A stretch of 64,000 nucleotides of DNA. It comes from a virus. Lineage: Duplodnaviria > Caudoviricetes. This document shows, piece after piece, positions 3,955-34,800 of this stretch. The stretch's first letter is position 1. Each line of letters starts with the position of its first letter. The translations under genes were made by a program, and so were the position numbers. The DNA is taken from the IMG/VR virus record IMGVR_UViG_2597490183_000004, positions 20,843 through 84,842 of that record. One strand, 5' to 3'. The notes under the pieces are model-generated. The model was not told where the DNA came from. It did not search any database and was given only the letters and a program-made list of their open reading frames with translations.

Positions 3955-4848
3955 ATGCCGCCCAGTGATCTACCCGACGATGTCGATCAGCCGCCTAGAT
4001 TCCCCCTCGCTCTGAAAATCCTTGTCGTAGTAATCGCCACAGCGTCGGTAGCGGCTGCCGCCCTGGCCTTCTGGCGCTTCTGGCCAGACATAACCGACCT
4101 GGCTGCCCCAGGCTTGGCGGCTCTCTTGGCCCTTGCAACAGTCATGCGGACAAGACGGGCCACCGCCCATCAGGCTGCTGCTGTAGGCGCGAGCCGTCAG
4201 CGCCTCACACGCGCCGAGGGCGCACTCGCAGACGCCATCCGCCGCGAGTACGCCTCCGTAGACGTCGTTGGCGGCGGCACACTCGCGCACAGCAGAGAAC
4301 GGCCAGCCTGGCGAGCCCCGGAAGAAGAACGAGGCCGCGCCCAGCCCACCACCAGTGAAGCCGGGCGACGCGGCGTCCTTGGTCTCCCTGAGCTCTGGGA
4401 AGCCACCCACGCCCGCCTCGACCTGTACCACCAGATCGCCACCGGCCAGGCGAAGACGTCCTTCCGGAACGCTCAGATCGCCATGGGCGCCGGCTTCCTC
4501 CTCCTGGTCCTCTTCGCCGGGATCGCCCTCTGGGCCAGCACCACCGCCGTTGCGATCGTCGCCGGCGGCCTCGGCGCCGTGTCCGCAGCTCTCGCTGGAT
4601 ACGTCGCCAAGACGTTCATCCGATCCCAGGAAGCCGCCGCCACACACCTCCGGTCCTACTTCGACCAACCCCTCGAACTCTCCCGCTACCTCGCCGCGGA
4701 ACGGCTGGTTGCCGACGGAGACCTCACCCAGGAGCAGCGCGGCGAGATCCTGTCCGCGCTCGTGCAGGCCATGGTCGCCGGGCCGCAACCGCCCGCACCG
4801 CCGCAAGCTGTCGCCGTGGTGCCCGTACCGGGACAGCCAGGGGCGTAG
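3955..4848 (+). CDS. TRADD-N-associated membrane-domain protein
   Basis: N-terminal 2 TM; LYHQIATGQAKTSFRNAQIAMGAG...TFIRSQEAAATHLRSYF 2TM domain. Confidence 0.65.
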   Translation: MPPSDLPDDVDQPPRFPLALKILVVVIATASVAAAALAFWRFWPDITDLAAPGLAALLALATVMRTRRATAHQAAAVGASRQRLTRAEGALADAIRREYASVDVVGGGTLAHSRERPAWRAPEEERGRAQPTTSEAGRRGVLGLPELWEATHARLDLYHQIATGQAKTSFRNAQIAMGAGFLLLVLFAGIALWASTTAVAIVAGGLGAVSAALAGYVAKTFIRSQEAAATHLRSYFDQPLELSRYLAAERLVADGDLTQEQRGEILSALVQAMVAGPQPPAPPQAVAVVPVPGQPGA

Positions 4849-5786: not shown

Positions 5787-6266
5787 TCAGGCGCCCGCCG
5801 AGGACCGAACCCCCGCAAGGGCCTCCTCGATCACACCCAGGAACTCGCCCGCCGCATCCTGCCGCCACGCCGTCGCATACAGGAACGCCTCCGCCAACTC
5901 AGCAAACCCGTTCTTCTCACCCGCGGCCCGCTCCAACGCCCGCGCCACCGCATACACCCGACGCGACACCCGATGCCGCTCCACCACCAGCTCCGCGAAC
6001 GCCAACACCTCCGCCAAGCTGTGATCCGGCGACGCCTCCAACACCAGGCCGCCACGCTTGCCCCGGAAGAACGACAACGTCGACTCCGAGTTCGAGGAAC
6101 TGTTCAGGCGCAGGCTGATGTCGTGCTCCGCAGCGAACGCCCACAGCGTCGCGCCGGCGTCGGAGGGGGAGGTCGGGGCCGGCGGCGGAGGGGGAACCGG
6201 GGCCGACAGGACCGGGGCGGAGGCGGGCGAAGGCACCGACGTGGACGTGGGCGCTACCATGCTCAT
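5787..6266 (-). CDS. hypothetical protein
   Basis: AAAGGAG RBS before ATG 6266; Pro-rich N-terminus. Confidence 0.65.
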   Translation of the reverse strand: MSMVAPTSTSVPSPASAPVLSAPVPPPPPAPTSPSDAGATLWAFAAEHDISLRLNSSSNSESTLSFFRGKRGGLVLEASPDHSLAEVLAFAELVVERHRVSRRVYAVARALERAAGEKNGFAELAEAFLYATAWRQDAAGEFLGVIEEALAGVRSSAGA

Positions 6267-6579
6267 GAGTGCTCCTTTGCTAGGGACAGGACTCGCGACC
6301 AGACGGGTGGTGCCGCTGGTCACAGGCCGGGCGGATGATGACCGCCCGGCCTTTCAACGTCCCGGGGTGGTGAACCCCAGGGCCATGCAGCGCCAGCTGG
6401 TGAGGCCGACGACGTGGAACGAACCTAGATCAGGCCACAAGATCCGTAAGACGGTGGAGATCCTGACCGGCCATCTCAACCTGCAACTTTGACAAGTAAA
6501 ACTTGACCGAACGCGCAGGTCAGGAGGGTTAATTATCCCCCTCGCCGAACCCCTGACCTCCAGCTTTCGAGACCCTCCG

Positions 6580-6608
6580 TTGCCTAATTGGATTTCGGTA
6601 TGTAGCTT
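6580..6608 (+). promoter_or_regulatory. sigma70/HrdB-type promoter
   Basis: TTGCCT-17 nt-TAGCTT with no credible ORF downstream. Confidence 0.6.
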
Positions 6609-6614
6609 CCCGAC

Positions 6615-6920
6615 CCCGCCAAAGCCGACTGGAAAACGACGTCGGCACGCGGCGACAGCCAGGCACCACCCCAACGCCGGACCCCGAAGTTCGGTACGAG
6701 GAAGAGGCTAGACCCGGCCACGGCGAAAGCCGCCCGAGTGGTGCACAAAGCGGCCACCCCCAGAAGGCGAAACAGCCCACGTTAGCGTAAGCCGATGGAC
6801 ACTTTCCGCAGGTCAGAGACCAGGCGAATGATCCTGCACCCAACCGGGAAACATGAGCCGAAGCGGACAAGAGCCGCGAAACGAGGGACGGGATAACGTG
6901 GCTGGAACTAGGGCCTGTCA
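6615..6920 (+). ncRNA. candidate structured non-coding RNA (partial raiA-motif-like resemblance)
   Basis: own promoter; multiple stems with purine-rich/GNRA loops; long-range pairings 6706-6721/6898-6911 and 6777-6784/6894-6901. Confidence 0.5.
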
Positions 6921-6955
6921 GAGGTGTAGGGGTTCACCAACACGCCTCGCCCGGC

Positions 6956-7447
6956 CTACTGGGGGAATGGGGGGTAGATCGAGAGGGGGGCCGGCGTCGC
7001 CGGCGTCGGCGGGGGCTTCGGCAGCAGTTGCTTCGCTCGGCGGTTGTCTTCGCACTGGAGTTGGCGGCGGCGATCGCCGTTGTGGTTCCGGTTGTAGATC
7101 GGCTGCTCTTCTGTGATTTCGATCTTCTCGATGCGCTCGGCGCTCTTCCGGGTTTCGAACCACTCGATCGACTTGTGGGTGACCTCGGGCCACCAGTACT
7201 TGTCGCGGGAGTGGGCGTGCCAGCGCTTCTTGGGGTTTGTGGTGATCCCGACGTACAGCAGGCGGTCGTCAGTGCCGTAGAGGCGGTAGAGCGCGGTGCG
7301 CCCAGATCCTCCGGGAGTCTTCTTTCGATCCGGGAGGGCCCGAGGAGGCGGTTGCTCGGTGCAGCGAGGAGTGCTCAAGACGCACTTTCCTTTCGGCGCG
7401 CATGGTGACCGGCGCGAGTCACACGGTTGCTCCGTGTTGTCGCGCAC
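6956..7447 (-). CDS. GIY-YIG nuclease family protein
   Basis: TALYRLY....LLYVGIT....RW..H...E..EI..EQPIYN; start uncertain. Confidence 0.8.
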   Translation of the reverse strand: MRDNTEQPCDSRRSPCAPKGKCVLSTPRCTEQPPPRALPDRKKTPGGSGRTALYRLYGTDDRLLYVGITTNPKKRWHAHSRDKYWWPEVTHKSIEWFETRKSAERIEKIEITEEQPIYNRNHNGDRRRQLQCEDNRRAKQLLPKPPPTPATPAPLSIYPPFPQ

Positions 7448-7461
7448 CTACCGTGACCTAT

Positions 7462-7475
7462 CTCCTTCGAAGGAG
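7462..7475. promoter_or_regulatory. GntR (KorSA-like) operator CTCCTTCGAAGGAG
   Basis: perfect 14-bp palindrome repeated at 8409 and 8445; core CTTCGAAG also at 7533. Confidence 0.75.
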
Positions 7476-7560
7476 TCAAGGGCTTCGCGGGTTTCGCCCG
7501 CTTCGCGCACCCGATCGGGAGGTGGCTAACATCTTCGAAGGGGTCGATTGAGGAGGAGTT

Positions 7561-8313
7561 TTGGCACCACGCAAGGGAGAGCCCGGAAGGTTCCTGTACA
7601 AGGAGCTCGCGGCGGAGTTTCGGGCCCAGATCCAGTCGGGTGCGCTGGCCCCTGGTGACGCGCTGCCAAGCGAGGCGGCCCTGATGGAGGAGCGCGGTCT
7701 CGCTCGATCCACTGTCCGCCAGGCATACGACCTCCTCAAGGCCGAAGGGCTGGCGACGGCCAAGCAGGGCAAGGGTGTCTTCGCGCTCAACCCCAAGAAG
7801 GTCATCCGAAACGCGCAGAAGCGGCTATCCCGGGAAGTCTGGGAGTCCGGACGGTCGATCTGGAGCGTCGACCTAGAAGGTCGTGACCCGTCCGTCGAGG
7901 TTGAAGTTGATGCGGAGATTGAAGCCCCGGAGTACATCGCCGGAGTGCTTGATGCTCGCCGCGTCTGCCGCCGGCGCCGCGTCTTCTCGCTCGATGACAG
8001 GACTCTCCAGGTTGCAACCTCTTACTTGGACGCCGGTCTTGCGGCGTCGGCAGGTATCGGGCAGGTCGACACTGGCCCCGGCGGGATGTACGCGCGCCTT
8101 GCGGACATCGGGCGCGCGCCCGCCGCCGCAAAGGAGCGCATCAGGAGTCGCGTGGCAATGCCGGACGAGGTGGACGTTCTTGAGCTGGGCGCAGGCTCGT
8201 GCGTCATCGTCATCGAGCGCACGGTCACGGATGCGGAGGGTCGAATCTTGGAGGTCAACGAGATGACGCTCGACGCTGCCCGCTACATCCTGGAGTACGA
8301 CTTCTCTCTCTAG
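7561..8313 (+). CDS. GntR/HutC-family repressor with UTRA domain (KorSA/KorA-like)
   Basis: LYKELA..FR.QI.SG.L.PGD.LPSE..L......RSTVRQA wHTH; UTRA C-terminus with GPGG. Confidence 0.9.
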   Translation: MAPRKGEPGRFLYKELAAEFRAQIQSGALAPGDALPSEAALMEERGLARSTVRQAYDLLKAEGLATAKQGKGVFALNPKKVIRNAQKRLSREVWESGRSIWSVDLEGRDPSVEVEVDAEIEAPEYIAGVLDARRVCRRRRVFSLDDRTLQVATSYLDAGLAASAGIGQVDTGPGGMYARLADIGRAPAAAKERIRSRVAMPDEVDVLELGAGSCVIVIERTVTDAEGRILEVNEMTLDAARYILEYDFSL

Positions 8314-8484: not shown

Positions 8485-8727
8485 ATGACGACCGACACCA
8501 GGGGCCACGAGCCCACCCCGGGCGATGAGCTGCTGACTGCCAAGCAGATCGCCGAGATCATGAAGGTCCACGTGGCGACCGTCTACCGCCTCGCGGACAG
8601 CGGCGAGCTGCGCGCCATGCGGTTCGGCCGGGGAGAGAGCCGGCGGCGAGGCTTCCGGTGCTGGAAGTCAGTCGTCCTGGACTTCATGCGCGACTCGGAA
8701 TATCCCGCCGAGGAGGTGGCGGCATGA
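8485..8727 (+). CDS. xis: excisionase-like HTH protein
   Basis: LLTAKQIAEIMKVHVATVYRLADSGELRAMR HTH_17 pattern. Confidence 0.75.
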   Translation: MTTDTRGHEPTPGDELLTAKQIAEIMKVHVATVYRLADSGELRAMRFGRGESRRRGFRCWKSVVLDFMRDSEYPAEEVAA

Positions 8728-10876: not shown

Positions 10877-12172
10877 ATGACCAGCCCGCCCCAGGTGAAC
10901 GGCCACCCGCGCCCCACCTCCGAGCCCCGGTTCGATCCGGTCGCGCTCGCCGAGGCGGACGCCATCCGCGCCAAGGCGGAGGCCGACGCCGAGGCCGCCC
11001 GGATCAAGGCCAAGGGTGAAGCCGATGCCGCCCGCACCCTCGCCGCCGAGGAGGCCGAGAAGCTGCGCCTCGCCAACGAGCGGGCCAGGCTGGCGCAGGA
11101 ACGCAAGCAGGTCGACCACGACGCCTACGTCGCAAAGAAGGCGGCCGAGACCGCCAAAGCCAACACGGAGAAGGAGAAGGCCGAGAAGGCCGACGCTGAC
11201 CGTGAAGCCGCCGAGGCCAAGCGGGAGGCGGAGCAGGAGCGGTCCGAGCTCTGGTGGAAGTGGGGCGCCCGCGCCATCTACGCCACCGGAATGATCATCG
11301 CCGGGCCGGTGCAGTTCATGCACTTCTGGGACCCCAAGCGCCCCTTCCTCGTCGCAGCCCCCGCCCTCCTGGAAGGCTTCGCTCTCGTTCTCGCGTTCGG
11401 TGCCGCGTGGGCGGTCGCCAACCGGCGGGACGTCGCCCCCTACCGCATCGGGATCATGGCCGGTGCAGTCATTGCCGCAGTCGTCAACCTTCACGGCGGG
11501 ATCTCCGACGATCGCATCGGACTCAACGCCGGCCTCATCGGCGCCATCGCCTCCCTCGGCGGCCCGCTCGTCCTCATGGCCTACGAACACGGCAAGGCCC
11601 AGAAGGCCGACGGGATCCCCTCCTGGAGGGAGCGCCGGGCTGTCGCGCGCGCCCAGTCCGAGGCTGCCGCAGCCCGCAAGAGGGAGCAGCTGGAGCGCCA
11701 GGCCGCGGAGCATGCCGCAGAGGCCGACCGGAAGTTCGCCGAGTCTCGGGCCAGGGAGGAGCAGGAGCGGCGCGACGCCGACCGGAAGAGCGGCCACCCG
11801 AAGGTGTGGGAGGTCGCCGAAGCGATTAGGTCCGCCCGCGGTTCGCAGTACGTCACGGAGCAGATCTGGACCGAGGCGTGGGGGCGTGTCACCGGCTCGA
11901 AGACCGTCGGGATCACCCCAGAAATCGAGGCGCAGTCACGGGGTGCTGAGGCCCGTATGCAGGCCGCTACGAAGACCCCGTTTTTTGGTGAGTTTTCGCT
12001 GATCAATTCCCATCGACCCCCCAAGCCGAAGAGGGACCCGAACGCCCCCGACGGGCGCCGCGGAAACGGGGGCGTGCCGCCTCGTCGCCGGGCCGGTGAC
12101 ACGCCGCCTCCCAGCCCCCTCGCGCGCAACCAGGCACGCATCGAACGGACCTCCACCGAGGAGCAGAAGTGA
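10877..12172 (+). CDS. DUF2637/SpdB-like multi-pass membrane protein with coiled coils (spread/transfer accessory)
   Basis: AEK-rich coiled coil, about 4 TM segments, directly upstream of traB. Confidence 0.7.
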   Translation: MTSPPQVNGHPRPTSEPRFDPVALAEADAIRAKAEADAEAARIKAKGEADAARTLAAEEAEKLRLANERARLAQERKQVDHDAYVAKKAAETAKANTEKEKAEKADADREAAEAKREAEQERSELWWKWGARAIYATGMIIAGPVQFMHFWDPKRPFLVAAPALLEGFALVLAFGAAWAVANRRDVAPYRIGIMAGAVIAAVVNLHGGISDDRIGLNAGLIGAIASLGGPLVLMAYEHGKAQKADGIPSWRERRAVARAQSEAAAARKREQLERQAAEHAAEADRKFAESRAREEQERRDADRKSGHPKVWEVAEAIRSARGSQYVTEQIWTEAWGRVTGSKTVGITPEIEAQSRGAEARMQAATKTPFFGEFSLINSHRPPKPKRDPNAPDGRRGNGGVPPRRRAGDTPPPSPLARNQARIERTSTEEQK

Positions 12173-14265
12173 GCACCGAAGCTGAGCCGCTGACCGTCCC
12201 CGCTGAGTGGGCCGAGCACGTTATCCCCGGGCAGCTCATCCACAACGCGGACGGCACCGTCGACGACATTGCCCCCGGTGTCCTGGTCCCGTTCCCGGAC
12301 CGCACCCCGGTCCTCTCTCGTGCCGGGTCGGCGGCCATGGTTGTCGCCTCCGTCACCGGGCGAGCTGTTGGCCTCACCGCCTACGGATCGTTGGTCGCCG
12401 GCGGATGGTTTTGGGCCGGGCTCAAAGCCGGGACGTACCTCGGGTACCGGTACGTGCGCGCCAAGGACCTTCAGGATGTCCTCGGCGGGATGAACAAGTC
12501 CGCCGACTGGAACAAGGTCGGCCAGGTCCGCCGATCCCGCTGGCGGTTTCTCGGCTACGCCACTGGTGTCACCGCCGCCCTCAACGTCGCCGGATGGATC
12601 GCCCTCGTCGCCGGCGCCGGAATGACCGCCCTCGACTACTCGTGGATGATCCCCCCGGCCATCACCGCGGCCATAGCCGCCACCGCCACCGCCCTCTACG
12701 GGCGGTACCGGCTCAACGCCCCCGGCCTTGAAGCCGGGCAGGTCATCGCCGAGCAGGACGCGGTCGGATCCGACGAGCCGTTCCCTCTGTCGTACTGCGT
12801 CGGCGGCGAGCAGGTCATTGACTGCCTGTCCCGAGCCCTCGCGGCTCACGGGATCGGCACCAGGGCGATCACCATCGTTGGTGCGAGGAACTGGGGTTGG
12901 GAGCTCGACGTCACTCTGCAGGGCTCCACCCCGGGCAAGGTCATGGCCGTGGCCGACGACCTCGAATCCGACCTGGGCCTTCCCGACGGCGGTTTCATGA
13001 TGGAGCCCGACACCACAGACAAGTCCCGCATCACCACCCGCCTCGTCCAGTCCAACCCGTTCGCCGACATGCCCGCCCCGGCCGTTCACGCCCCGCGGTC
13101 CCTGTCGGTTCACGACGTGGTCGTCATGGGGCGCACCATGGACGGGTCACCGTTCGAGCTCACCCTCGACGGGTTCTGCGCCCTGATCATTGGCGCGATG
13201 GGCGCAGGCAAGACCCTCGGGGCGCTGCGGGCGATCAACGAGGCGCTCACCGCCTGCCGGGACGCAACCGTGTGGGACCTCGACCCGATCAAGGGCGGGC
13301 TGTCCGAGTTCGGCGACCTCATGTCCCGCCGGGCCCGGACCCCGGAGGAGTGCGAGGAGGCACTTGAGGAGGCGCTCTCCTACGTGTCCGCCCGCCGTCA
13401 CCTCATGGACAGCCTGAAGATGGGCGACCGGTGGCACGCCACCGAGACGCACCCGAACCTGTACATCAACGTTGACGAGTTCATCCAGCTCAGCCCTCGC
13501 GGCAAGGATCTGCTGGTCAAGATCCTGCGGACCGGTCGCCAGTACGGCATCTACCTGATCATGGCCGGGCAGGAAGCAACCGCCGACGCCCTCGGTGACG
13601 CCGTTGCCATGCTGATTGCGTACCGGCTCCTCATGGCGTGCCGTTTCGAGGACATCAAGATCGCCTTCGGGCCTGGGGCGGGCAAGGAAGGCTGGCGCCC
13701 TGACCGCATGAAGCCCGCAGTTGGCCCCGTCGCCAACGACGCAGGCCAGGCCATGATTATGGGCGGCACGTTCAACCGGGCCATCCGCTACCAGTTCGCC
13801 AAGTACACCCGCGACCAGATCGCAGCAGCCGTGCCCGCGCGCGTCGCCGCCGGCGTCACCGCCATGGACTCCGAAACCCTCCTCAAGGCCGGAGTCGCCC
13901 TCGCCGGCAGCAGCCAGCGGATGAACCTTGCCGACCGGCTCGAAGCCTTCGCCCAGCAGGGTGGCGTGGATGATGCCTACCTCGTGGCAGCGCTGCTGCG
14001 GGCGTTCGACGAGACGGGCCGCGGCTTCCTCCCGACGAACGAGGTGCTGCTCCCCGCCATCACTGGCGCGGGCATCAAGGACATCGACGCGACCAGCCTG
14101 TCGACGAAGCTCCGCAAGCATGCCCCCGGCGTCAAGTCCGACCGCACGGACTGCCCCGAGGGGGCCTACCTCCGAGGGTGGCGCCGAGACGACGTTGAGA
14201 AGGCCGCGGCCGGCCTTCTGGACCCGGTGGAGACCCGGCAGAACCTCGGCAAGAGGGCGGCGTAG
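12169..14265 (+). CDS. traB: TraB-like FtsK/SpoIIIE conjugative DNA translocase
   Basis: N-terminal TMs, Walker A GAMGAGKT, Walker B INVDEF, GRQYGIYLIMAGQ, C-terminal wHTH (GWRR). Confidence 0.8.
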   Translation: MSTEAEPLTVPAEWAEHVIPGQLIHNADGTVDDIAPGVLVPFPDRTPVLSRAGSAAMVVASVTGRAVGLTAYGSLVAGGWFWAGLKAGTYLGYRYVRAKDLQDVLGGMNKSADWNKVGQVRRSRWRFLGYATGVTAALNVAGWIALVAGAGMTALDYSWMIPPAITAAIAATATALYGRYRLNAPGLEAGQVIAEQDAVGSDEPFPLSYCVGGEQVIDCLSRALAAHGIGTRAITIVGARNWGWELDVTLQGSTPGKVMAVADDLESDLGLPDGGFMMEPDTTDKSRITTRLVQSNPFADMPAPAVHAPRSLSVHDVVVMGRTMDGSPFELTLDGFCALIIGAMGAGKTLGALRAINEALTACRDATVWDLDPIKGGLSEFGDLMSRRARTPEECEEALEEALSYVSARRHLMDSLKMGDRWHATETHPNLYINVDEFIQLSPRGKDLLVKILRTGRQYGIYLIMAGQEATADALGDAVAMLIAYRLLMACRFEDIKIAFGPGAGKEGWRPDRMKPAVGPVANDAGQAMIMGGTFNRAIRYQFAKYTRDQIAAAVPARVAAGVTAMDSETLLKAGVALAGSSQRMNLADRLEAFAQQGGVDDAYLVAALLRAFDETGRGFLPTNEVLLPAITGAGIKDIDATSLSTKLRKHAPGVKSDRTDCPEGAYLRGWRRDDVEKAAAGLLDPVETRQNLGKRAA

Positions 14266-21197: not shown

Positions 21198-21362
21198 ATG
21201 CCAGGCCGACGACACACCGGATTCCGCAGCCGAGCTCAGTGGCGCTACTTCTTCGCCAATCCACGGCTCCGCCGATACGCCCGCCAGAAAGCCCACGCCA
21301 CCAAGGGTGGAAAGATCACCCGCTACCGGCGGCTCCCCGCCCGCAAAGGCCGCCGCCGCTAA
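21198..21362 (+). CDS. small highly basic protein
   Basis: GGAGGTG RBS; MPGRRHTGFRSRAQWRYFFA...; Arg/Lys-rich with no acidic residues. Confidence 0.65.
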   Translation: MPGRRHTGFRSRAQWRYFFANPRLRRYARQKAHATKGGKITRYRRLPARKGRRR

Positions 21363-23050
21363 GCCGCCAACGTCGGCCGCGAGCCCCCGCCCACCGGCTC
21401 CTCGTCGAGCTCCTCGCCCTGGCCCTCATCGAAGCCCGGCTCAACATCGTCGTCCGGCTGCTCCTCGTTCGGATCTACGTCGCGAGTGTTGAACGGATCC
21501 CCGGCCGGCGTCTCCTGCGTCTTGTCGTCCCGGATACGCCGCACCTCCTCCATCACCTCGGCGTGATCCCAGGCCGGCTCCCGCATCTTCACCTTCATGT
21601 ACGTGCTGATCGCCCCAGCCGACTCCAGCAGCGACAGGGTGCGCGCGGTGGCCTCCGGGTCCGGCTGTACCGCCTGCGGCCACGACGCCGTCAACTCCGC
21701 CGCCGGGTCCACGCCCTTCGCCCCGCAGTGCTTCACGTCGACCCACATCATCGTCGTCAGCACCTCCAGCAACGCCGGGCGCTGGTAGAGGATCTTCAAG
21801 CCGCGGGTCGTCAGCGACTCCTCCTTGCGGGCCGCGACCTCCGTAGCGGTCACCGCGACCGTGCCCTGCTCGCCGAACGACTGAGCCGAGTAGCCGGCCG
21901 AGGAGAGGATCTGCCGACGCAGCTCCTTCGTCGTCCGCTCGTGCTCCTCGACTCGGATCTTGAACTGGATGTCGGTGATCGAGTCCTTCATCGTCTCCGC
22001 ACCCAGCAACCCGGACAGGGCCACAATCAGTTCCCTGTCCAGGTCGAACGTGCCGCCCGTTCCTGGCCCGTCGGTGTCCAGCATGGACTGCGGCACCACG
22101 ACCTTCGCCTTGCCGAGTCGCAGGTCCCGCATCCACGACGACCACGACTCGTCCAGGGCGTCCATCATCGGCTCGATGCCTGCATAGTCGGAGCGCCCCA
22201 GCGGTGCCGTGTCCGGCACTCCGTCCCAGATTCTGTTGGGCAACACGTTCGGCATGTGCGTGATCAGCAGGCGGTCGACGCCCGTTGCCTGCCGGCCGTG
22301 GTCGTCGGTGCGCTTCACCAAGAACTCGGTCTCGTGATGATCGTCGAACCCCATGAGCATGCCCAGGGTGCTGTTGTCGCCTCGGTACACCCCGTACTCG
22401 ATGGACCCCGGGGTGTGGTACTCCAGCAGCCGCCACACATCCCCGCCCTCCGTGAGCGGCTCCAGCTCCCGCCACACCGTCGCCGCAGCGAGCATGCCCC
22501 ACCGCCACTCCGGCACCACCCCCGTTGCCGGGATGACGTCCAGCCACGGGCGCGTCCGGAGCGACTTGTCCCACACCACCCGCAGGTACACGTTCGACAA
22601 CCCGGCGGCCAGCTCGGCGGCCTCCCGGAACTTTGCGTGTCCCCGGTCATCGAGGTACCGGCCGATCTGCGCCTGCGTCGACTCCGCCGTCGCCTTGTCC
22701 GTGGAGTCCACGTCGACCGTCACCTGCGGCACCTCAGCCCACAGCAGGTTCGCGGACATCTCCGCAATGTCCCCTCCGATCGGCACATGCAACTTCGCCG
22801 CCTGCTGTCCCGGCGACGGATCCTGACCCCAGAACATCCGCAGCTCATCACCGCCCACCGCCCGCCGCCGGTCCAGGTCGAAGAAAGCGCGCGCCACACC
22901 GTTCCGCGTGTACGCGGCCGGCCCGCCGTACACCTGAGCCAAATGCCCGGTGTCACCCGCGTACCAGGCCCGCCACATGTCCATGTCGGCATGCGGAATC
23001 TCCAAGCGAGGCGGCGGCCACGAGGTGTTCCCAGACGGAGGCAGCGGCAT
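21359..23050 (-). CDS. phage portal protein (A118/SPP1 Gp6-like)
   Basis: LHVPIGGDIA, LGRSDY, ALDESWSSWMRDLRLGK, IRVEEH, TATEV; follows TerL. Confidence 0.9.
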   Translation of the reverse strand: MPLPPSGNTSWPPPRLEIPHADMDMWRAWYAGDTGHLAQVYGGPAAYTRNGVARAFFDLDRRRAVGGDELRMFWGQDPSPGQQAAKLHVPIGGDIAEMSANLLWAEVPQVTVDVDSTDKATAESTQAQIGRYLDDRGHAKFREAAELAAGLSNVYLRVVWDKSLRTRPWLDVIPATGVVPEWRWGMLAAATVWRELEPLTEGGDVWRLLEYHTPGSIEYGVYRGDNSTLGMLMGFDDHHETEFLVKRTDDHGRQATGVDRLLITHMPNVLPNRIWDGVPDTAPLGRSDYAGIEPMMDALDESWSSWMRDLRLGKAKVVVPQSMLDTDGPGTGGTFDLDRELIVALSGLLGAETMKDSITDIQFKIRVEEHERTTKELRRQILSSAGYSAQSFGEQGTVAVTATEVAARKEESLTTRGLKILYQRPALLEVLTTMMWVDVKHCGAKGVDPAAELTASWPQAVQPDPEATARTLSLLESAGAISTYMKVKMREPAWDHAEVMEEVRRIRDDKTQETPAGDPFNTRDVDPNEEQPDDDVEPGFDEGQGEELDEEPVGGGSRPTLAA

Positions 23051-23065
23051 GACGAGTCCTTTCGG

Positions 23066-24316
23066 TCAGGCGGCCAGGGCGAGCTGGCGCTGCCACAGGG
23101 CACGAGTAGTGAAGATCGCGTAGCGGAGGGCGTCGACGCCATGGTCGGCAACCTTGATGGGGCGCTCCTCGCCGCGGAGGGCGGCCTTGTCGTCCCAGGA
23201 GTAGCCGCCGATCTCGGTGATGAGGTCCTTGCAGGAGGCGTGCACGAGCAGCCGGTTGGCGGCAAGCAGGGAGGAGACGGTGCGAATGCCGTCCATGACG
23301 TCGTTCTTCGCCGCGGTCGGCGTCATCCGGTCCCGGCGCAACTGGGCGCTGAAGCTTGCCGCGGACGGGTCGACGGTCACGAACTGCGGGCGCACCGGGC
23401 CGATCCCCGGCACGTCCATGAGCCACGCCCGCATCCGCTGCGAGTATTCGGCGTCGGTGAGCTGCTTCTTCGTCTGCCGCGCCTCATACCGCCACTCCGC
23501 GGCGGCGTAGAGCCGGCGGTCCCGGCCGAGGCCGAGGAGCACAGCGTGGAACGGGTTGCTCGTTCCGTAGTCCACACCCAGGCTGATCCACCGGTGGATG
23601 CCCTCGCGGGGCAGGGCGGTGACGATGTGGCGTTGACGGTCCCACGAGTCGTAGATGGCGCCCTCGGCGGCCACCCACTCGCCGAGGATGAACCGGCGGT
23701 AGAACAGACCCTCGTGAGAGGCCTTCATGTCGGCGACGTACTCGGGATCCAAGAAGGGGTTGTCGTCGATCGTGAACGAGAACCGCCTCACCGGCTTCGT
23801 TCCGACGTGGGCCAGCCAGTCCCGCATGAACCAGTGCGCCGGGTTGTCGGGGTTCGTCGTGCAGAACAGCTGGGCGCCGTGCACGGACATGCGGCCGTAG
23901 AGCTGCTCGAAGAAGATCTGCGGCACCAGCGTCACTTCGTCGACGTAGGCCCCGCACACCGTCATACCGCGGATCTTCGGCTCCGACTTGGCATCGTTGG
24001 CGCCGATGACGTGTACAACTCGGCCAAGGATCCTGGCTGTCGGCGCGCCTGGGGTGTAGTGGATGTGGTGGGCGATCTCCCCGAACAGGGCAGGGTCCTG
24101 CATGGGCAGGAACAGGTTCCTATGGATCGTCTGCGACGTCTTGCCGATCATGACGAGTTCACCCGTCGACGGCGCATTCGCCACGAATATCAACCACTTC
24201 AGCAGCGAAGCGATCGTCTTCCCCGACCGAATGGCACCCTCCCAGCACGAGATCTTCGTCGTCGACTCAGCGACCGACCTGATCTGCTTCCGCGACAACG
24301 GGAGGGTGTCCAACAT
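23066..24316 (-). CDS. terL: terminase large subunit (PBSX family)
   Basis: WEGAIRSGKT, AYVDEV, TTNPD, GVDYGTSNP, DPSA, DHGVDALRY. Confidence 0.95.
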   Translation of the reverse strand: MLDTLPLSRKQIRSVAESTTKISCWEGAIRSGKTIASLLKWLIFVANAPSTGELVMIGKTSQTIHRNLFLPMQDPALFGEIAHHIHYTPGAPTARILGRVVHVIGANDAKSEPKIRGMTVCGAYVDEVTLVPQIFFEQLYGRMSVHGAQLFCTTNPDNPAHWFMRDWLAHVGTKPVRRFSFTIDDNPFLDPEYVADMKASHEGLFYRRFILGEWVAAEGAIYDSWDRQRHIVTALPREGIHRWISLGVDYGTSNPFHAVLLGLGRDRRLYAAAEWRYEARQTKKQLTDAEYSQRMRAWLMDVPGIGPVRPQFVTVDPSAASFSAQLRRDRMTPTAAKNDVMDGIRTVSSLLAANRLLVHASCKDLITEIGGYSWDDKAALRGEERPIKVADHGVDALRYAIFTTRALWQRQLALAA

Positions 24317-31862: not shown

Positions 31863-34800
31863 ATGGCCGAGCCGACACTCGTCGGATCCACCCGGGTCTC
31901 ACTCATTCCGGACACATCCAGCTTCGGCGACCGGCTCCGCATCGAGCTGCCCTCCGCGATCCGCCAGCCCGCCAAGCTCGCCGGAGAAGTCGCCGGAGAC
32001 CAGATCCTCGACGGGATCCGCCGGAAGCTCGCGGCTGCTACCCCCACTGTGCGGGTCGGTGTCGACCTCCTCACCACGGTGGCTGAGGCCAAGCTCACCA
32101 AGCTGACCAAGACGCGCACGGTCAAAATCACCGCCGAGCTGGACGACAAGGCCGCCACAACGGCGCTGACCCGCCTCACCCGAGACCGCACGGTGAAGGT
32201 CCGAGCCGAGCTCGATGACACCGCGGCGCGCGCCGGGCTGGGCAGGCTCACGGACCAGCGCACCGTGAAGGTCACTGCCCAACTCGACGACACGGCGGCG
32301 AAGGCGGCGCTCGGGAAGCTGAACGCCGACCGCACCGTGAAGATCACAGCGCAGGTCGACGACACCGCCGCCAAAGCGAAGCTCGCCGGGTTCGGGCAGA
32401 CCACCGTCGACATCGTCGCCAAGATCAACGATGCGGCGTACAAGCGAGTCGAGAAAGCCCTCGCCAAACTCACCGCCGACCGCTTTGTGCAAATCCGCGC
32501 CACCCTCGACACCCGGGTCGCCGCCAACGAACTCCGCGGCCTCACCCAGCGGCAGCGGGTCCGTATCGGTGTCGACGTCGACACCCGGGTAGCCGCGGAC
32601 GACATCGCCAACCTCACCCGCCGCCGCACCGCACGCATTACCGCCCGCGCCGACACCGCCAGCGCCGCCACCGCGCTCACCACCCTCACCCGCGACCGGG
32701 TCACTAACGTCCGTGTCCGCACTGTCGGACTGTCCGCGCTCACCGGCTCTCTCGCATCCCTGGGGTCCGCGAGCGGAAGCGGCGGTGGCCTCGGCCGGCT
32801 CTCCGGCGGCATCGGGTCACTGGCCGCCGCAGCAGTTCTTGCCCTGCCGCAGATCGCCTCCCTCGGGTCAGCTGTCGCTCAGCTCGGGCCGCTGGCTGCC
32901 GTGGCTGCCCCTGGCGTGCTGACCCTGGCCACCGCGTTCGGCGCGATCAAGCTGGGCACGTCCGGGGTCGGCGACGCCATCAAGGCGGCGTTCAGCCCCG
33001 CGCCGGCCGAAGCGAAGGCCGCGGTCACTGCGACCCGGCAGGTCGAAACCGCTCAGCGCTCCCTCGCCAACGCGCAGCGCGGTGTCGCCGACGCCGAACG
33101 CAACCTGTCCCAAGCCCAACGCACCGCCCGGCAGGCCCAACAGGAACTGTCCGCTGCCCGCAGGCAAGCCGCCCGCGACCTGGAGGACATGAACCAGCGC
33201 CTCCGCCAAGGCGCACTCGACCAGAAGCAGGCCGCACTCGACATCGAGCAGGCCGAACTCGACCTCGCGAAAACCCGCTCCGACCCCACCGCCACCCAGC
33301 TGCAGATCCAGCAGGCCAACCTTTCCCTGGAGCGGGCGCGGGCCGCGGCTGAGGAGCAGTCCCGGCAGCAGAAGCGCCTTCAGGTAGACACCGCCGCCGC
33401 GAACAAGGCCGGGGTCGCTGGCTCCGACGCGGTGGTGCAGGCGCAGGAACGAATCCGGTCGGCCAACGAGCAGGTAGCGGACCAGCAGCGTGGTCTGGTC
33501 GACGCCCACCGCGCTGTCGCCGACGCCACCCGGGCCGTTGCGGACGCCCAGCAGAACGCCGCCACGCAAACCACGAAGCTCGACGACGCCATCTCGAAGC
33601 TCAGCCCCAACGCCCGCGGGTTCGTGAACACCCTCCAGGCCATGGCGCCGGCGTGGCGGGCCATGAAACTCGACGTGCAGGACGCCCTCTTCGCAGGACT
33701 CGGCAGTCGGCTCCAGGCCGTCGGCGGGCGGATTCTGCCTACCGTCCGGGCCGGGTTCGTCGGCGCCGCAGGCGAGCTCAGCGATATGGCGAAGAACGCC
33801 CTTACCGCTGTCGCCACCCTGGAACGCACCGGGCAGCTCAAAGGCACGTTCGACGTCATCCGCAACGGGCTCGGGAACCTCAACCGCATCCCCGGCCAAG
33901 TCCTCACCGGTCTGTCGCAGCTCACTATCGCCGCTGGCCCCGCCTGGGACCGGATCACTGCCGGTGCGGGCGAGGCCATGGACCGGGTCATGGGCAAGCT
34001 CGCCAAGGGCTTGGAGAACGGCAAGCTTGAGGAGGCCATCAACACCGCCCTCGACATCGCCGTCCAGTTCGGCGGGGTGCTGGCGGACCTCGGCGGCATC
34101 ATCAGGAACGTCTTCGGCGCCGCCGCTGATGGGGGCGGCGACTTCTTCGCCATCATCGGATCCGCCCTGGCAGAGATCCGCCGGGTTACCGCCCTGCCCG
34201 AAGTGCAAGATTCACTAAAGGCGATCTTCTCCGCCGTTCAGGCAGTGGCCGGGCTCCTCGCCGGGGCGCTCGGCGACGCCATCCAAGCAGTCCTGCCGGT
34301 CCTCGCCGCCCTGGCGCCCTCGGTGACGCAGGTCGCGAAACTCCTCGGCCCCGCCGTCTCCGACCTGTTCGCGACGCTGGGGGAGGCGCTTCTTCCTGTC
34401 GCCGAGGCCCTGGGTCCGGTTCTGGTGGTGGCCGCCCAGGCGGTCATCGCTCTGGTCAAGGCGGTGTCGCCGCTGCTCCCTGTCCTCGGGAAGTTGATCG
34501 GGGACCTGCTGCCGCTGGTCACTCCGATCTTCGACATGCTGGTGACCGTCTTCAACGCCCTGGCACCGGTCATTGCGCAGATCGCCGCCCAACTCGGCCC
34601 GATCCTCACACCCATCATTGAGGGCCTGGCCGCGGTCATATCCGAGCTGGCGCAGCAGTTCGCCGCCCAGTTCCTGAACCTCCTCCAGCAGCTGCTGCCG
34701 GTTCTGCCGATGCTGATCCCGGCGTTCATCCAGCTCGGCCAGGCCATCGGGCAGATCCTGTTCGCCCTGGCCCCGTTGCTGCCGCAGTTGCTGCTGCTCA

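What the first reader, a model, noticed from the sequence alone, without database searches (positions are those of the whole stretch)
6580..6925. Promoter-driven, ORF-free, highly structured ~300-nt RNA candidate convergent on a GIY-YIG nuclease
Seen in sequence: a well-spaced promoter (TTGCCT-17-TAGCTT, 6580-6608) fires into ~340 nt with no credible CDS but dense pairing. Local stems: GCCGAC/GTCGGC (6624/6641), CCGGAC/GTTCGG (6677/6689), CGGC-GAAA-GCCG (6721-6732), GTGGT../..GGCCAC (6738-6757), GGTC-AGA-GACC (6811-6821), GCAGG/CCTGC (6808/6833). There are several GAAA/GTAA loops and two competing long-range helices: CTAGACCCGGCCAC with GTGGCTGGAACTAG, and CCACGTTA with TAACGTGG. From memory, the segments GAAAGCCG...CCAG.AGGCGAAAC..CCACGTTAG and GGTCAGAGACCAGG resemble conserved blocks of the raiA-motif RNA, but in a different arrangement; I could not verify this. 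Inference: a phage/plasmid-borne raiA-like or new large ncRNA, possibly partnered with the adjacent GIY-YIG protein or acting as a ribozyme or antisense regulator.
Basis: partly seen in the sequence, partly recalled or inferred. Interest (0 to 1): 0.8.

Follow-up and report, generated by a model that had tools for sequence, protein, structure and literature searches.

The report
Mosaic non-coding spacer, not a structured RNA
The proposed 300-nt structured RNA is better read as part of a patchwork, gene-free insert in the control region of a Streptomyces-type prophage, holding a few conserved DNA motifs and a possible promoter but no conserved RNA fold.

Summary
The pairing is not more than chance: MFE z = -1.13, and 9 of 100 shuffles fold as well. 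No Rfam family matches, raiA included.

The 603 nt between the GIY-YIG stop codon (6956) and a GC hairpin (6324-6352) is an insert. In 6 related loci that hairpin follows the stop by 7-20 nt. In 6 others, this window among them, 220-899 nt of mosaic sequence lie between.

Only islands are conserved:
- the promoter-like box 6580-6608, kept in 2 relatives;
- a 10-mer, CGCAGGTCAG, present twice;
- an AGGTCA/TGACCT inverted repeat;
- a 135-nt block at 6778-6912.

The "transcripts" would be 341, 193 and 626 nt long, with ordinary folding energy and no supporting covariation.

Best reading: a regulatory spacer, possibly giving an antisense transcript against the GIY-YIG gene. The covarying structure lies next door, in two tandem hairpins at 6297-6352 on the minus strand, found in 19 loci. 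No expression data were available.

The parts
5787..6269 (-). Downstream gene of unknown function. The likely start is the ATG at 6269, behind AAGGAG; the listed ORF runs to 6323.
   Evidence: ORF list and codon-position GC. No Pfam, PHROG or NCBIfam hit. The N-terminal stretch and leader are shared with L004.
6297..6321 (-). Hairpin 2 (GACCAG...CTGGTC), in the leader of the downstream gene.
   Evidence: A 7-9 bp hairpin is predicted at this position in 19 of 19 aligned loci, with different stem sequences: CAGCGG/CCGCUG, CAGCGAG/CUCGCUG, GGCGAGU/ACUCGCC, CGCGAGU/ACUCGCG.
6324..6352 (-). Hairpin 1, a GC-rich 10-11 bp stem with a 7-nt loop. It is terminator-like for the GIY-YIG gene.
   Evidence: 100% complementary arms (I4). 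In RNAalifold, 9 pairs are predicted and 3 have compensatory changes across 19 loci. The three hairpins 6290-6385 (-) give z = -5.19, with 0 of 200 shuffles as stable. It follows the GIY-YIG stop by 7-20 nt in 6 loci that lack the insert.
6353..6437 (.). Left end of the insert ('block A, right part'), including a third hairpin at 6361-6382.
   Evidence: About 90% identical to L004/L013/L031 and L037, and also present in L035 and L066. Single-base indels between relatives argue against coding.
6491..6507 (.). Imperfect palindrome GACAAGT-AAA-ACTTGAC, overlapping the -35-like TTGACA and TTGACC.
   Evidence: Read. At the aligned position L035 has the perfect 16-bp palindrome CTATCAACGTTGATAG and L066 has CCAACATGTTGG, both without a loop.
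6514..6559 (+). First copy of CGCAGGTCAG (6514-6523) and the inverted repeat AGGTCA...TGACCT (6517-6559).
   Evidence: The inverted repeat occurs once in the window against 0.01 expected. It is conserved in L035, L066 and L004. The fold of 6505-6570 gives z = -2.68 on + and -2.15 on -.
6580..6608 (+). Promoter-like box TTGCCT-17-TAGCTT.
   Evidence: 7 of 12 consensus positions, and not listed by the scan. Conserved with the same spacing in L035 and L066. A pattern scan found no further true copy in IMG/VR. In run X2 a contig replaces 6599-6656 with 71 other letters.
6609..6777 (+).
   Evidence: Not alignable to L004. 6646-6778 is replaced by 232 letters in X3. L035 similarity stops at 6623 and L066 similarity at 6721. 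The consensus fold of three homologs is -6.09 kcal/mol with a covariation term of +2.11.
6778..6912 (.). 'Block B', a discrete conserved 135-nt module. It holds the second CGCAGGTCAG (6807-6816), the palindrome GGTCAGAGACC (6811-6821) and complementary ends at 6778-6785 / 6894-6901.
   Evidence: 81% identical to L004. Contigs of X1, X2 and X3 cover it and break at 6778 and 6912. nhmmer finds no other copy in the loci held. Folding z is -0.94 (+) and +0.42 (-). 0 of 23 (+) and 0 of 29 (-) predicted pairs show compensatory change.
6908..6910 (-). CTA, which is the TAG stop of the longer GIY-YIG-wHTH gene in L004. It marks the right edge of block B.
   Evidence: The L004 ORF 3213..3941 ends at the aligned CTA.
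6956..7447 (-). GIY-YIG nuclease gene (163 aa), a short form of a GIY-YIG-GntR fusion.
   Evidence: Pfam GIY-YIG at 5.2e-06 and PHROG endonuclease at 1.1e-20. The alignment with L004 (242 aa) and L005 (324 aa) shows the missing C-terminal domains.

Best explanation
Region 6580-6925 is not one conserved, highly structured RNA. It is the right-hand two thirds of a 603-nt gene-free insert (6353-6955). The insert lies between the stop codon of the GIY-YIG gene and that gene's conserved terminator-like hairpin, in the early or control region of a Streptomyces-type prophage.

The insert is a mosaic of exchangeable segments. What is kept between relatives are short DNA-level islands:
- a palindrome whose sequence differs from element to element;
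- the 10-mer CGCAGGTCAG, twice on the same strand, with an AGGTCA/TGACCT inverted repeat;
- a promoter-like box with fixed 17-nt spacing;
- the 135-nt block B, which abuts the convergent gene's stop codon.

I read this as an operator-promoter cassette.

Inferred, not shown: the box fires rightwards from about 6614. The resulting transcript matters through being antisense to the GIY-YIG mRNA, both its 3' untranslated part and its 3' end, or through convergent transcription. It does not matter through a fold of its own.
For: Insert status:
- Hairpin 1 follows the GIY-YIG stop by 7-20 nt in 6 loci: L036, L047, L048, L058, L065 and L067 (L047 and L048 are alike there).
- It is 220-899 nt away in the window, L031 (= L004), L035, L037, L059 (= L005) and L066.

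Mosaic:
- L004 keeps 6297-6437 (90%) and 6778-6910 (81%) but not the middle.
- L035 keeps 6297-6623 (73%) and L066 keeps 6297-6721 (68%).
- An X3 contig replaces 6646-6778 and an X2 contig replaces 6599-6656.

Conserved islands:
- The promoter box is kept in 3 of the 3 loci that hold this segment.
- CGCAGGTCAG occurs 7 times in 3362 nt of six gaps against 0.05 expected, all on one strand.
- The inverted repeat occurs once in the window against 0.01 expected.
- Loop-less perfect palindromes of different sequence sit at one aligned position in L035 and L066. An RNA hairpin does not need this form, whereas a dimeric DNA-binding protein does.

No RNA-fold signal:
- z = -1.13, +0.08 and -1.32 for the three downstream stretches.
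- The consensus fold is -6.09 kcal/mol with a positive covariation term.
- No Rfam match.

Positive control: in the same loci, real covariation is seen in hairpins 1 and 2.

Non-coding: similarity appears in all six frames.
Against: - No expression data. No RNA run was listed for this sequence, so neither the promoter nor the direction of transcription is shown.
- The box is a weak consensus match (7 of 12). Its spacer is conserved as well as its hexamers, so it may be a protein site and not a promoter.
- One relative (X2) has other sequence across the -10 position.
- No + strand terminator was identified for such a transcript, apart from two consensus hits inside the GIY-YIG gene at 7062-7105.
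- The inverted-repeat arms are 1 to 38 nt apart in different copies. That spacing fits hairpins better than a fixed dimer site.
- Block B has sharp, repeated boundaries, and its substitutions avoid the predicted stems. A small structured RNA would also give this pattern.
- Only 2 to 3 full homologs of each segment were available, so the covariation tests have almost no power.
Confidence: 0.5

Rival explanations
1. Functionless debris. The insert is a recombination scar or decayed remnant, for example of the lost C-terminal wHTH/UTRA domains of the GIY-YIG-GntR fusion or of a small convergent gene. The conserved islands only reflect recent common descent.
For: - The insert is absent from 6 related loci, so it is dispensable.
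- Its length (603 nt) is close to the coding length missing from the 163-aa protein relative to the 324-aa form.
- There is a weak rise of GC in the GIY-YIG codon phase across 6545-6900 (0.65-0.75).
- L066 carries a 47-aa ORF behind a strong ribosome-binding site inside its insert.
Against: - tblastn of 43 GIY-YIG-family proteins against the gaps gave only hits with E >= 0.017.
- L005 has the full-length fusion and still has a 505-nt insert.
- The islands (box, 10-mer, inverted repeat) are much better kept than their surroundings at 68-73% overall identity.
- The 10-mer recurs within each gap, which descent alone does not explain.
Confidence: 0.2
2. A real small structured RNA limited to block B (6778-6912, about 125-135 nt), closed by the CACGTT/AACGTG helix. 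The rest of the reader's candidate would be a variable leader.
For: - Sharp module boundaries at 6778 and 6912 recur in L004, X1 and X3.
- The terminal helix is kept as 6 of 8 pairs in L004.
- None of the differences between the window and L004 falls in a predicted pair.
- L005 holds a distant version sharing ACACTTTC, TGAGCCGAAGC and TGGCTGGAAC in the same order.
Against: - Folding energy is ordinary: z = -0.94 (+) and +0.42 (-) in the window, -1.10 and -2.00 in L004. The two MFE structures differ.
- 0 compensatory pairs of 23 (+) and of 29 (-).
- X1 and X3 carry G6836>T inside the GCAGG/CCTGC stem, and no partner change appears among the rows shown (122 rows were not shown).
- The central element is a near-loopless palindrome in L004 (CAGGTCA-G-TGACCTG).
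- There is no Rfam match.
Confidence: 0.1
3. An RNA-primed or iteron-type replication origin of a phage-plasmid. It would be analogous to the ~600-bp ORF-free, transcribed origins of extrachromosomal cluster A mycobacteriophage prophages.
For: - An ORF-free stretch of about 600 nt with a promoter-like box, repeated 10-mers and palindromes.
- One strand is A-rich and T-poor in 6 of 6 gaps (A 0.21-0.25, T 0.14-0.19).
- Low sequence conservation between relatives, similar to the 41-71% reported for those origins (PMC7157519; sections read).
- The terminase is 85-86% identical to those of two circular 88-91 kb Streptomyces plasmids.
- No RepSA match in the record.
Against: - The record has an integrase and no ParB_N or AAA_31 (ParA-type) match.
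- The insert is missing from related loci.
- The two closest plasmids have a different early-region gene order.
- No plasmid record matched the gap DNA.
- Only one Rep family was tested, and that search had no positive control.
Confidence: 0.1
4. One reading: a ~300-nt highly structured, raiA-like or ribozyme-type RNA that works through its tertiary fold, perhaps together with the GIY-YIG protein.
For: Many local stems, GAAA/GNRA-like loops and an A-rich composition. The promoter-like box is conserved.
Against: - z = -1.13.
- No Rfam hit.
- Most of the stems lie in segments that relatives replace.
- Transcript length is not conserved, at 341, 193 and 626 nt.
- The consensus fold has no support.
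- The GIY-YIG gene occurs without the insert in 6 loci.
Confidence: 0.05

Closest known systems
Cis-antisense RNAs of temperate phages, such as lambda OOP (recalled from general knowledge; no paper read here)
   Same: A short, ORF-free unit with its own promoter, placed convergent to and directly behind a regulatory-region gene. Any transcript would be complementary to that gene's mRNA 3' part.
   Different: No transcript, terminator or overlap has been shown here. The candidate would be several hundred nt long and is not conserved in length. There is no sequence relation.
RNA-based (non-RepA) replication origins of extrachromosomal cluster A mycobacteriophage prophages (Wetzel et al. 2020, PMC7157519; outline and sections 7, 10, 11 and 15 read; supplements not seen)
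   Same: A ~600-bp ORF-free region in an actinobacterial temperate phage, thought to be transcribed, with little sequence conservation between related phages.
   Different: Those origins lie next to parABS in phages without an integrase. This record has an integrase and no ParA/ParB match. The insert is absent from relatives. Replication function was not tested.
raiA motif RNA
   Same: Only scattered short strings such as GAAA loops and GGTC..GACC.
   Different: No match to any Rfam covariance model, even at E <= 10.
Phage morons and mosaic intergenic modules (general knowledge)
   Same: An optional cassette inserted between a gene and its terminator, with its own promoter-like element. It is present in some relatives and absent in others, with sharp module boundaries.
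   Different: Classical morons carry a protein-coding gene and a terminator of their own. This cassette has no conserved ORF.
U-tail-less ('I-shaped') GC-rich intrinsic terminators of actinobacteria (general knowledge)
   Same: Hairpin 1 (6324-6352, minus strand) is a 10-11 bp GC stem directly behind a stop codon in relatives, and it covaries.
   Different: It is followed by a second conserved hairpin and then the next gene's ribosome-binding site. It may therefore act as an attenuator or leader element and not as a full stop.

Membership tests
raiA motif RNA / any Rfam family | Match to the family's covariance model at or above its gathering score | tested here: not met
   0 matches in the whole window at gathering score. 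There were 5 matches at E <= 10 in 6250-7050, none of them raiA and none inside 6580-6925. No gap match in 5 related loci.
Structured non-coding RNA (generic criteria) | Folding energy clearly below that of shuffled sequence | tested here: not met
   z = -1.13 (window +), -0.59 (window -), +0.08 (L035) and -1.32 (L066).
Structured non-coding RNA (generic criteria) | Same architecture and similar length in homologs | tested here: not met
   Segments are replaced in L004, X2 and X3. The distance from the box to the stop codon is 341, 193 and 626 nt.
Structured non-coding RNA (generic criteria) | Compensatory base-pair changes | tested here: inconclusive
   0 of 23 and 0 of 29 pairs for block B, with 2 sequences. 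For the 5' part, 3 of 15 pairs changed on both sides, but the covariation term is +2.11 and many pairs are broken. There are too few homologs for a real test.
Cis-antisense RNA (OOP-like) | Promoter facing the 3' end of the target gene | tested here: inconclusive
   The promoter-like box is conserved with 17-nt spacing in 3 of 3 loci that hold the segment. It is only 7 of 12 to consensus and was not listed by the scan. Its activity is unknown.
Cis-antisense RNA (OOP-like) | A transcript that overlaps the target mRNA | not testable with these tools
   No RNA run was listed for this sequence. Overlap is inferred from the position of the gene's terminator-like hairpin beyond the insert.
RNA-based prophage origin (Wetzel 2020 type) | ORF-free region of about 600 bp | tested here: met
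   603 nt with no conserved ORF.
RNA-based prophage origin (Wetzel 2020 type) | Extrachromosomal prophage with parABS next to the origin and no integrase | tested here: not met
   Integrase match at G000 1559-2092. No ParB_N or AAA_31 match.
RNA-based prophage origin (Wetzel 2020 type) | The region is sufficient for autonomous replication | not testable with these tools
   Needs cloning into a non-replicating vector.
Intrinsic terminator / leader hairpins (for 6297-6352, minus strand) | Conserved position behind a stop codon, with stems kept through compensatory changes | tested here: met
   Hairpin 1: 3 of 9 pairs have compensatory changes across 19 loci. Hairpin 2 is predicted in 19 of 19 loci with at least 5 different stem sequences. 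z = -5.19.

The most novel reading that the evidence does not exclude
The gene-free insert is a transcribed, self-contained non-coding cassette that moves between Streptomyces phage-plasmid-type elements. It would act either as an RNA-primed or iteron-type replication origin, or as an incompatibility or immunity determinant. That would be a Streptomyces counterpart of the RNA-based origins known so far only from cluster A mycobacteriophages. Block B would be its conserved functional RNA or DNA core.
Probability: 0.12. Interest if true: 0.65.

Novelty: new member of a known kind. Interest (0 to 1): 0.3.

Why it matters
If the cassette is a regulated promoter that makes an antisense transcript, it adds one more example of convergent-transcription control to a little-studied family of ~80-90 kb Streptomyces prophages and phage-plasmids. 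That is useful to people annotating these elements but not surprising.

The practical lesson is wider. In 60-70% GC DNA, a dense list of stems and GNRA-like loops is what chance gives, so comparative evidence has to decide. In the same loci, that evidence does pick out a covarying element, the tandem hairpins next door.

Only the minority reading, a new RNA-based origin or incompatibility module, would be of wider interest. It could give new Streptomyces vectors.

Tried and rejected
- Rfam at gathering score and at E <= 10: nothing relevant.
- tRNA/tmRNA scan of the window: 0 genes. Tandem repeats: none in the gap.
- DNA search of the gap against plasmid and phage records: no match.
- Single-protein scans of IMG/VR with the GIY-YIG protein and with the 178-aa protein: no relatives.
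- Genome-contig scan with the GIY-YIG protein: one irrelevant Pseudomonadota locus.
- Block-B pattern scans. IMG/VR gave 8 stretches, of which 1 was true (the contig of L004) and 7 were chance. Three of the chance hits proved to be one unrelated coding sequence. Metagenome contigs gave 14 stretches, with 0 true.
- Promoter-box pattern: 3 stretches, 2 on contigs already known and 1 low-GC chance hit. Block-A pattern: only known contigs.
- Sequencing runs: no RNA holder listed.
- Contigs of 4 DNA runs were laid on the region. Only 40 of 162 variant rows were shown, so pair-by-pair covariation could not be read from them.
- Remnant-of-GIY-YIG-C-terminus idea: no significant tblastn hit.
- Conserved small ORFs: rejected because of frame-breaking indels and all-frame similarity.
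- The 47-aa ORF in L066 has no Pfam hit.
- Window-wide enrichment of CGCAGGTCAG with 1 mismatch, or of GGTCANNGACC: none.
- KorSA/SCO3932 operator motif from PMC8584621 (passages read): no likeness to the motifs here.
- Ideas considered only by eye and left untested: a TraB clt-type 8-mer repeat, an RCR single-strand origin (the CS-6-like TAGCGT in block B), and transposon ends or target duplications.
Relatives could not be drawn for a virus record, so no Streptomyces genomes could be searched.

Full report
**Context**

The window is bases 20843-84842 of an 84.8-kb IMG/VR provirus record of 68% GC. It carries:
- a terminase and a portal (23066-24316 and 21359-23050);
- an ORF of about 1950 aa at 31863-37727, called by codon-position GC and not searched;
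- an FtsK/TraB-like gene at 12169-14265;
- a GntR/UTRA regulator at 7561-8313 and an HTH_17 protein at 8485-8727;
- an integrase, in the part of the record to the left of the window.

Its terminase is 85-86% identical to those of two circular 88-91 kb Streptomyces plasmids. The element therefore belongs to a Streptomyces prophage/phage-plasmid lineage.

The finding lies in the 686-nt gap between two minus-strand genes. These are a GIY-YIG nuclease gene (6956-7447) and an unknown gene (5787-6269).

**Observation**

The stretch has no credible ORF. The codon-position GC signal of the neighbouring genes is missing, and similarity to relatives appears in all six frames with frame-breaking indels.

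The pairing is not unusual. The + strand 6610-6925 folds with z = -1.13, and 9 of 100 shuffles fold as well. The minus strand gives z = -0.59.

The promoter is a 7-of-12 match that the consensus scan did not list.

Rfam gives nothing at gathering score for the whole window. At E <= 10 it gives only unrelated weak hits to the left of the finding, so the recalled likeness to raiA is refuted.

**Relatives**

Single-protein scans with the GIY-YIG and 178-aa proteins found nothing. The neighbouring GntR gene led to 5 loci, and a three-sequence GIY-YIG alignment led to 43 loci. Contigs of four DNA sequencing runs were also laid on the region.

The key result is positional. In 6 loci (L036, L047, L048, L058, L065, L067) a GC-rich hairpin, GGCCGGGCG...CGCCCGGCC, follows the GIY-YIG stop codon by 7-20 nt. 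In the window, L031 (= L004), L035, L037, L059 (= L005) and L066, 220 to 899 nt lie between the stop and that hairpin. I did not measure the gap in the remaining 32 of the 43 loci, which lack an exact match to my hairpin expression.

**The insert is a mosaic**

- L004 shares 6297-6437 (90%) and 6778-6910 (81%), but its 423-nt middle does not align with 6438-6777.
- L035 shares 6297-6623 (73%), L066 shares 6297-6721 (68%) and L037 shares only up to 6438.
- An X3 contig is 92% alike over 5800-6646. It then has 232 other letters in place of 6646-6778 and resumes for 6778-6912.
- An X2 contig replaces 6599-6656 with 71 letters.
- X1 and X3 contigs both leave the window's sequence at 6912.
- In L004 the aligned CTA at 6908-6910 is the TAG stop of a longer GIY-YIG-wHTH gene.

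**What is conserved**

(a) The promoter-like box. It reads TTGCCTAATTGGATTTCGGTATGTAGCTT in the window, TTGTGTAACTGGATTTCGGTATGTACCTT in L035 and TTGTGTAATTGGATTTCGCTATGTAGCTT in L066. A pattern scan found no other true copy in IMG/VR.

(b) The 10-mer CGCAGGTCAG. It occurs twice on the + strand in the window (6514, 6807), in L004 and in L066, and once plus a variant in L035. That is 7 copies in 3362 nt of gaps against 0.05 expected from the rest of the window.

(c) The inverted repeat AGGTCA...TGACCT at 6517-6559. It occurs once in the window against 0.01 expected and is kept in L004, L035 and L066. The spacer varies from 1 to 38 nt among copies.

(d) A palindrome about 10-25 nt upstream of the first 10-mer, with a different sequence in each element. 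It is GACAAGT-AAA-ACTTGAC in the window, the perfect CTATCAACGTTGATAG in L035 and CCAACATGTTGG in L066. Loop-less perfect palindromes are what dimeric DNA-binding proteins use. RNA folding does not select for them.

(e) Block B, 6778-6912.

**Tests for a conserved RNA fold**

Downstream of the box, the distance to the convergent stop codon is 341 nt in the window, 193 nt in L035 and 626 nt in L066. The folding z-scores are -1.13, +0.08 and -1.32.

The consensus fold of the aligned 5' parts is -6.09 kcal/mol, with a covariation term of +2.11 and many broken pairs.

Block B folds with z = -0.94 (+) and +0.42 (-) in the window, and -1.10 and -2.00 in L004. The minimum-energy structures differ between the two. 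None of 23 (+) or 29 (-) consensus pairs shows a compensatory change.

With only two full sequences this cannot exclude a fold. The differences between the window and L004 do avoid the predicted stems. Against that, X1 and X3 carry G6836>T inside one stem. nhmmer found no further block-B copy in the loci held at that point. L005 has only a distant version.

**A positive control next door**

The same set of loci does reveal structure where it exists. On the minus strand, 6290-6385 forms three hairpins with z = -5.19.

Hairpin 1 (6324-6352) has compensatory changes in 3 of its 9 consensus pairs across 19 loci, for example C-G to U-A in 4 of them.

Hairpin 2 (6297-6321) is predicted in 19 of 19 loci with at least five different stem sequences.

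These lie outside the finding's coordinates. I read them as the GIY-YIG gene's terminator-like hairpin plus a leader hairpin of the next gene.

**Interpretation**

The best-supported reading is an optional, fast-evolving control cassette. It comprises an operator-like palindrome, a repeated 10-mer with an inverted repeat, a promoter-like box and block B, and it sits inside what would be the 3' untranslated region of the GIY-YIG mRNA.

If the box is an active promoter, its product is antisense to that mRNA. It would work through complementarity or through convergent transcription, in the manner of phage antisense RNAs such as lambda OOP (recalled, not read here). This step is inference, because no RNA run was listed for the sequence.

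The rivals are:
- functionless debris;
- a small structured RNA confined to block B;
- a replication origin of the RNA-based kind described for mycobacteriophage prophages (PMC7157519). The integrase, the missing ParA/ParB matches and the dispensability of the insert speak against this one.

**Limits**

No Streptomyces genomes were searched.
- Only 40 of 162 variant rows of the laid contigs were shown.
- The supplementary files of PMC7157519 (RNA-seq figures, phage table) were not seen.
- E-values and enrichment counts over homologous gaps are not independent observations.

Noticed in passing
window 6297-6352 (minus strand); also L031, L035-L037, L041, L047, L052, L058, L059, L061, L063, L065-L067, L032, L006-L008: Two tandem hairpins between the GIY-YIG gene and the next gene are conserved in 19 loci with compensatory stem changes. 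They are the only element with real covariation support in this neighbourhood, and are probably a U-tail-less terminator plus a leader or attenuator hairpin.
   Followed up: partly
window 6956-7447 (-); L004 3213-3941 (-); L005 2917-3891 (-): The window's 163-aa GIY-YIG protein is the shortest of a series. L004 has GIY-YIG plus a winged-helix domain (242 aa) and L005 has a full GIY-YIG-GntR-like fusion (324 aa). A nuclease fused to a GntR-type DNA-binding and effector domain is an unusual architecture.
   Followed up: partly
window 7452-7465 and 7533-7541: A perfect 14-bp palindrome CTCCTTCGAAGGAG and a second CTTCGAAGG copy lie in the divergent GntR / GIY-YIG intergenic region. They are also present in L004 and are a likely operator of the GntR regulator.
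   Followed up: no
window 3955-4848 (+): A 297-aa protein with a weak hit to the TRADD-N-associated two-transmembrane domain (E 6.9e-05, just below cut-off), next to two genes without any family match. This may be defence-type cargo.
   Followed up: no
window 23066-24316 (-) and plasmids NZ_CP109440.1, NZ_CP046906.1: The terminase is 85-86% identical to those of two circular 88-91 kb Streptomyces plasmids, so this provirus has close kin that live as plasmids (phage-plasmids). Their early regions are arranged differently.
   Followed up: partly
L066 3686-3829 (-): In one relative the insert holds a 47-aa ORF behind a strong GGAGGAGG ribosome-binding site, on the same strand as the promoter-like box. 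It has no Pfam hit and no counterpart in the window.
   Followed up: partly
window 6545-6900: There is a weak rise of GC (0.65-0.75) in the codon phase used by the GIY-YIG gene, continuing past its stop codon. It could be a trace of lost coding sequence, but no protein similarity was found.
   Followed up: partly
L035 3640-3690 and L037 3640-3690 (shown as reverse complement): These two relatives share a different conserved block next to the GIY-YIG stop (GGTGACATATTCTCAATT..GCAGGTCGCTGACCTGGGACATGTACCTGAGGT) in the place of block B. It again contains a CAGGTC/GACCTG palindrome.
   Followed up: no
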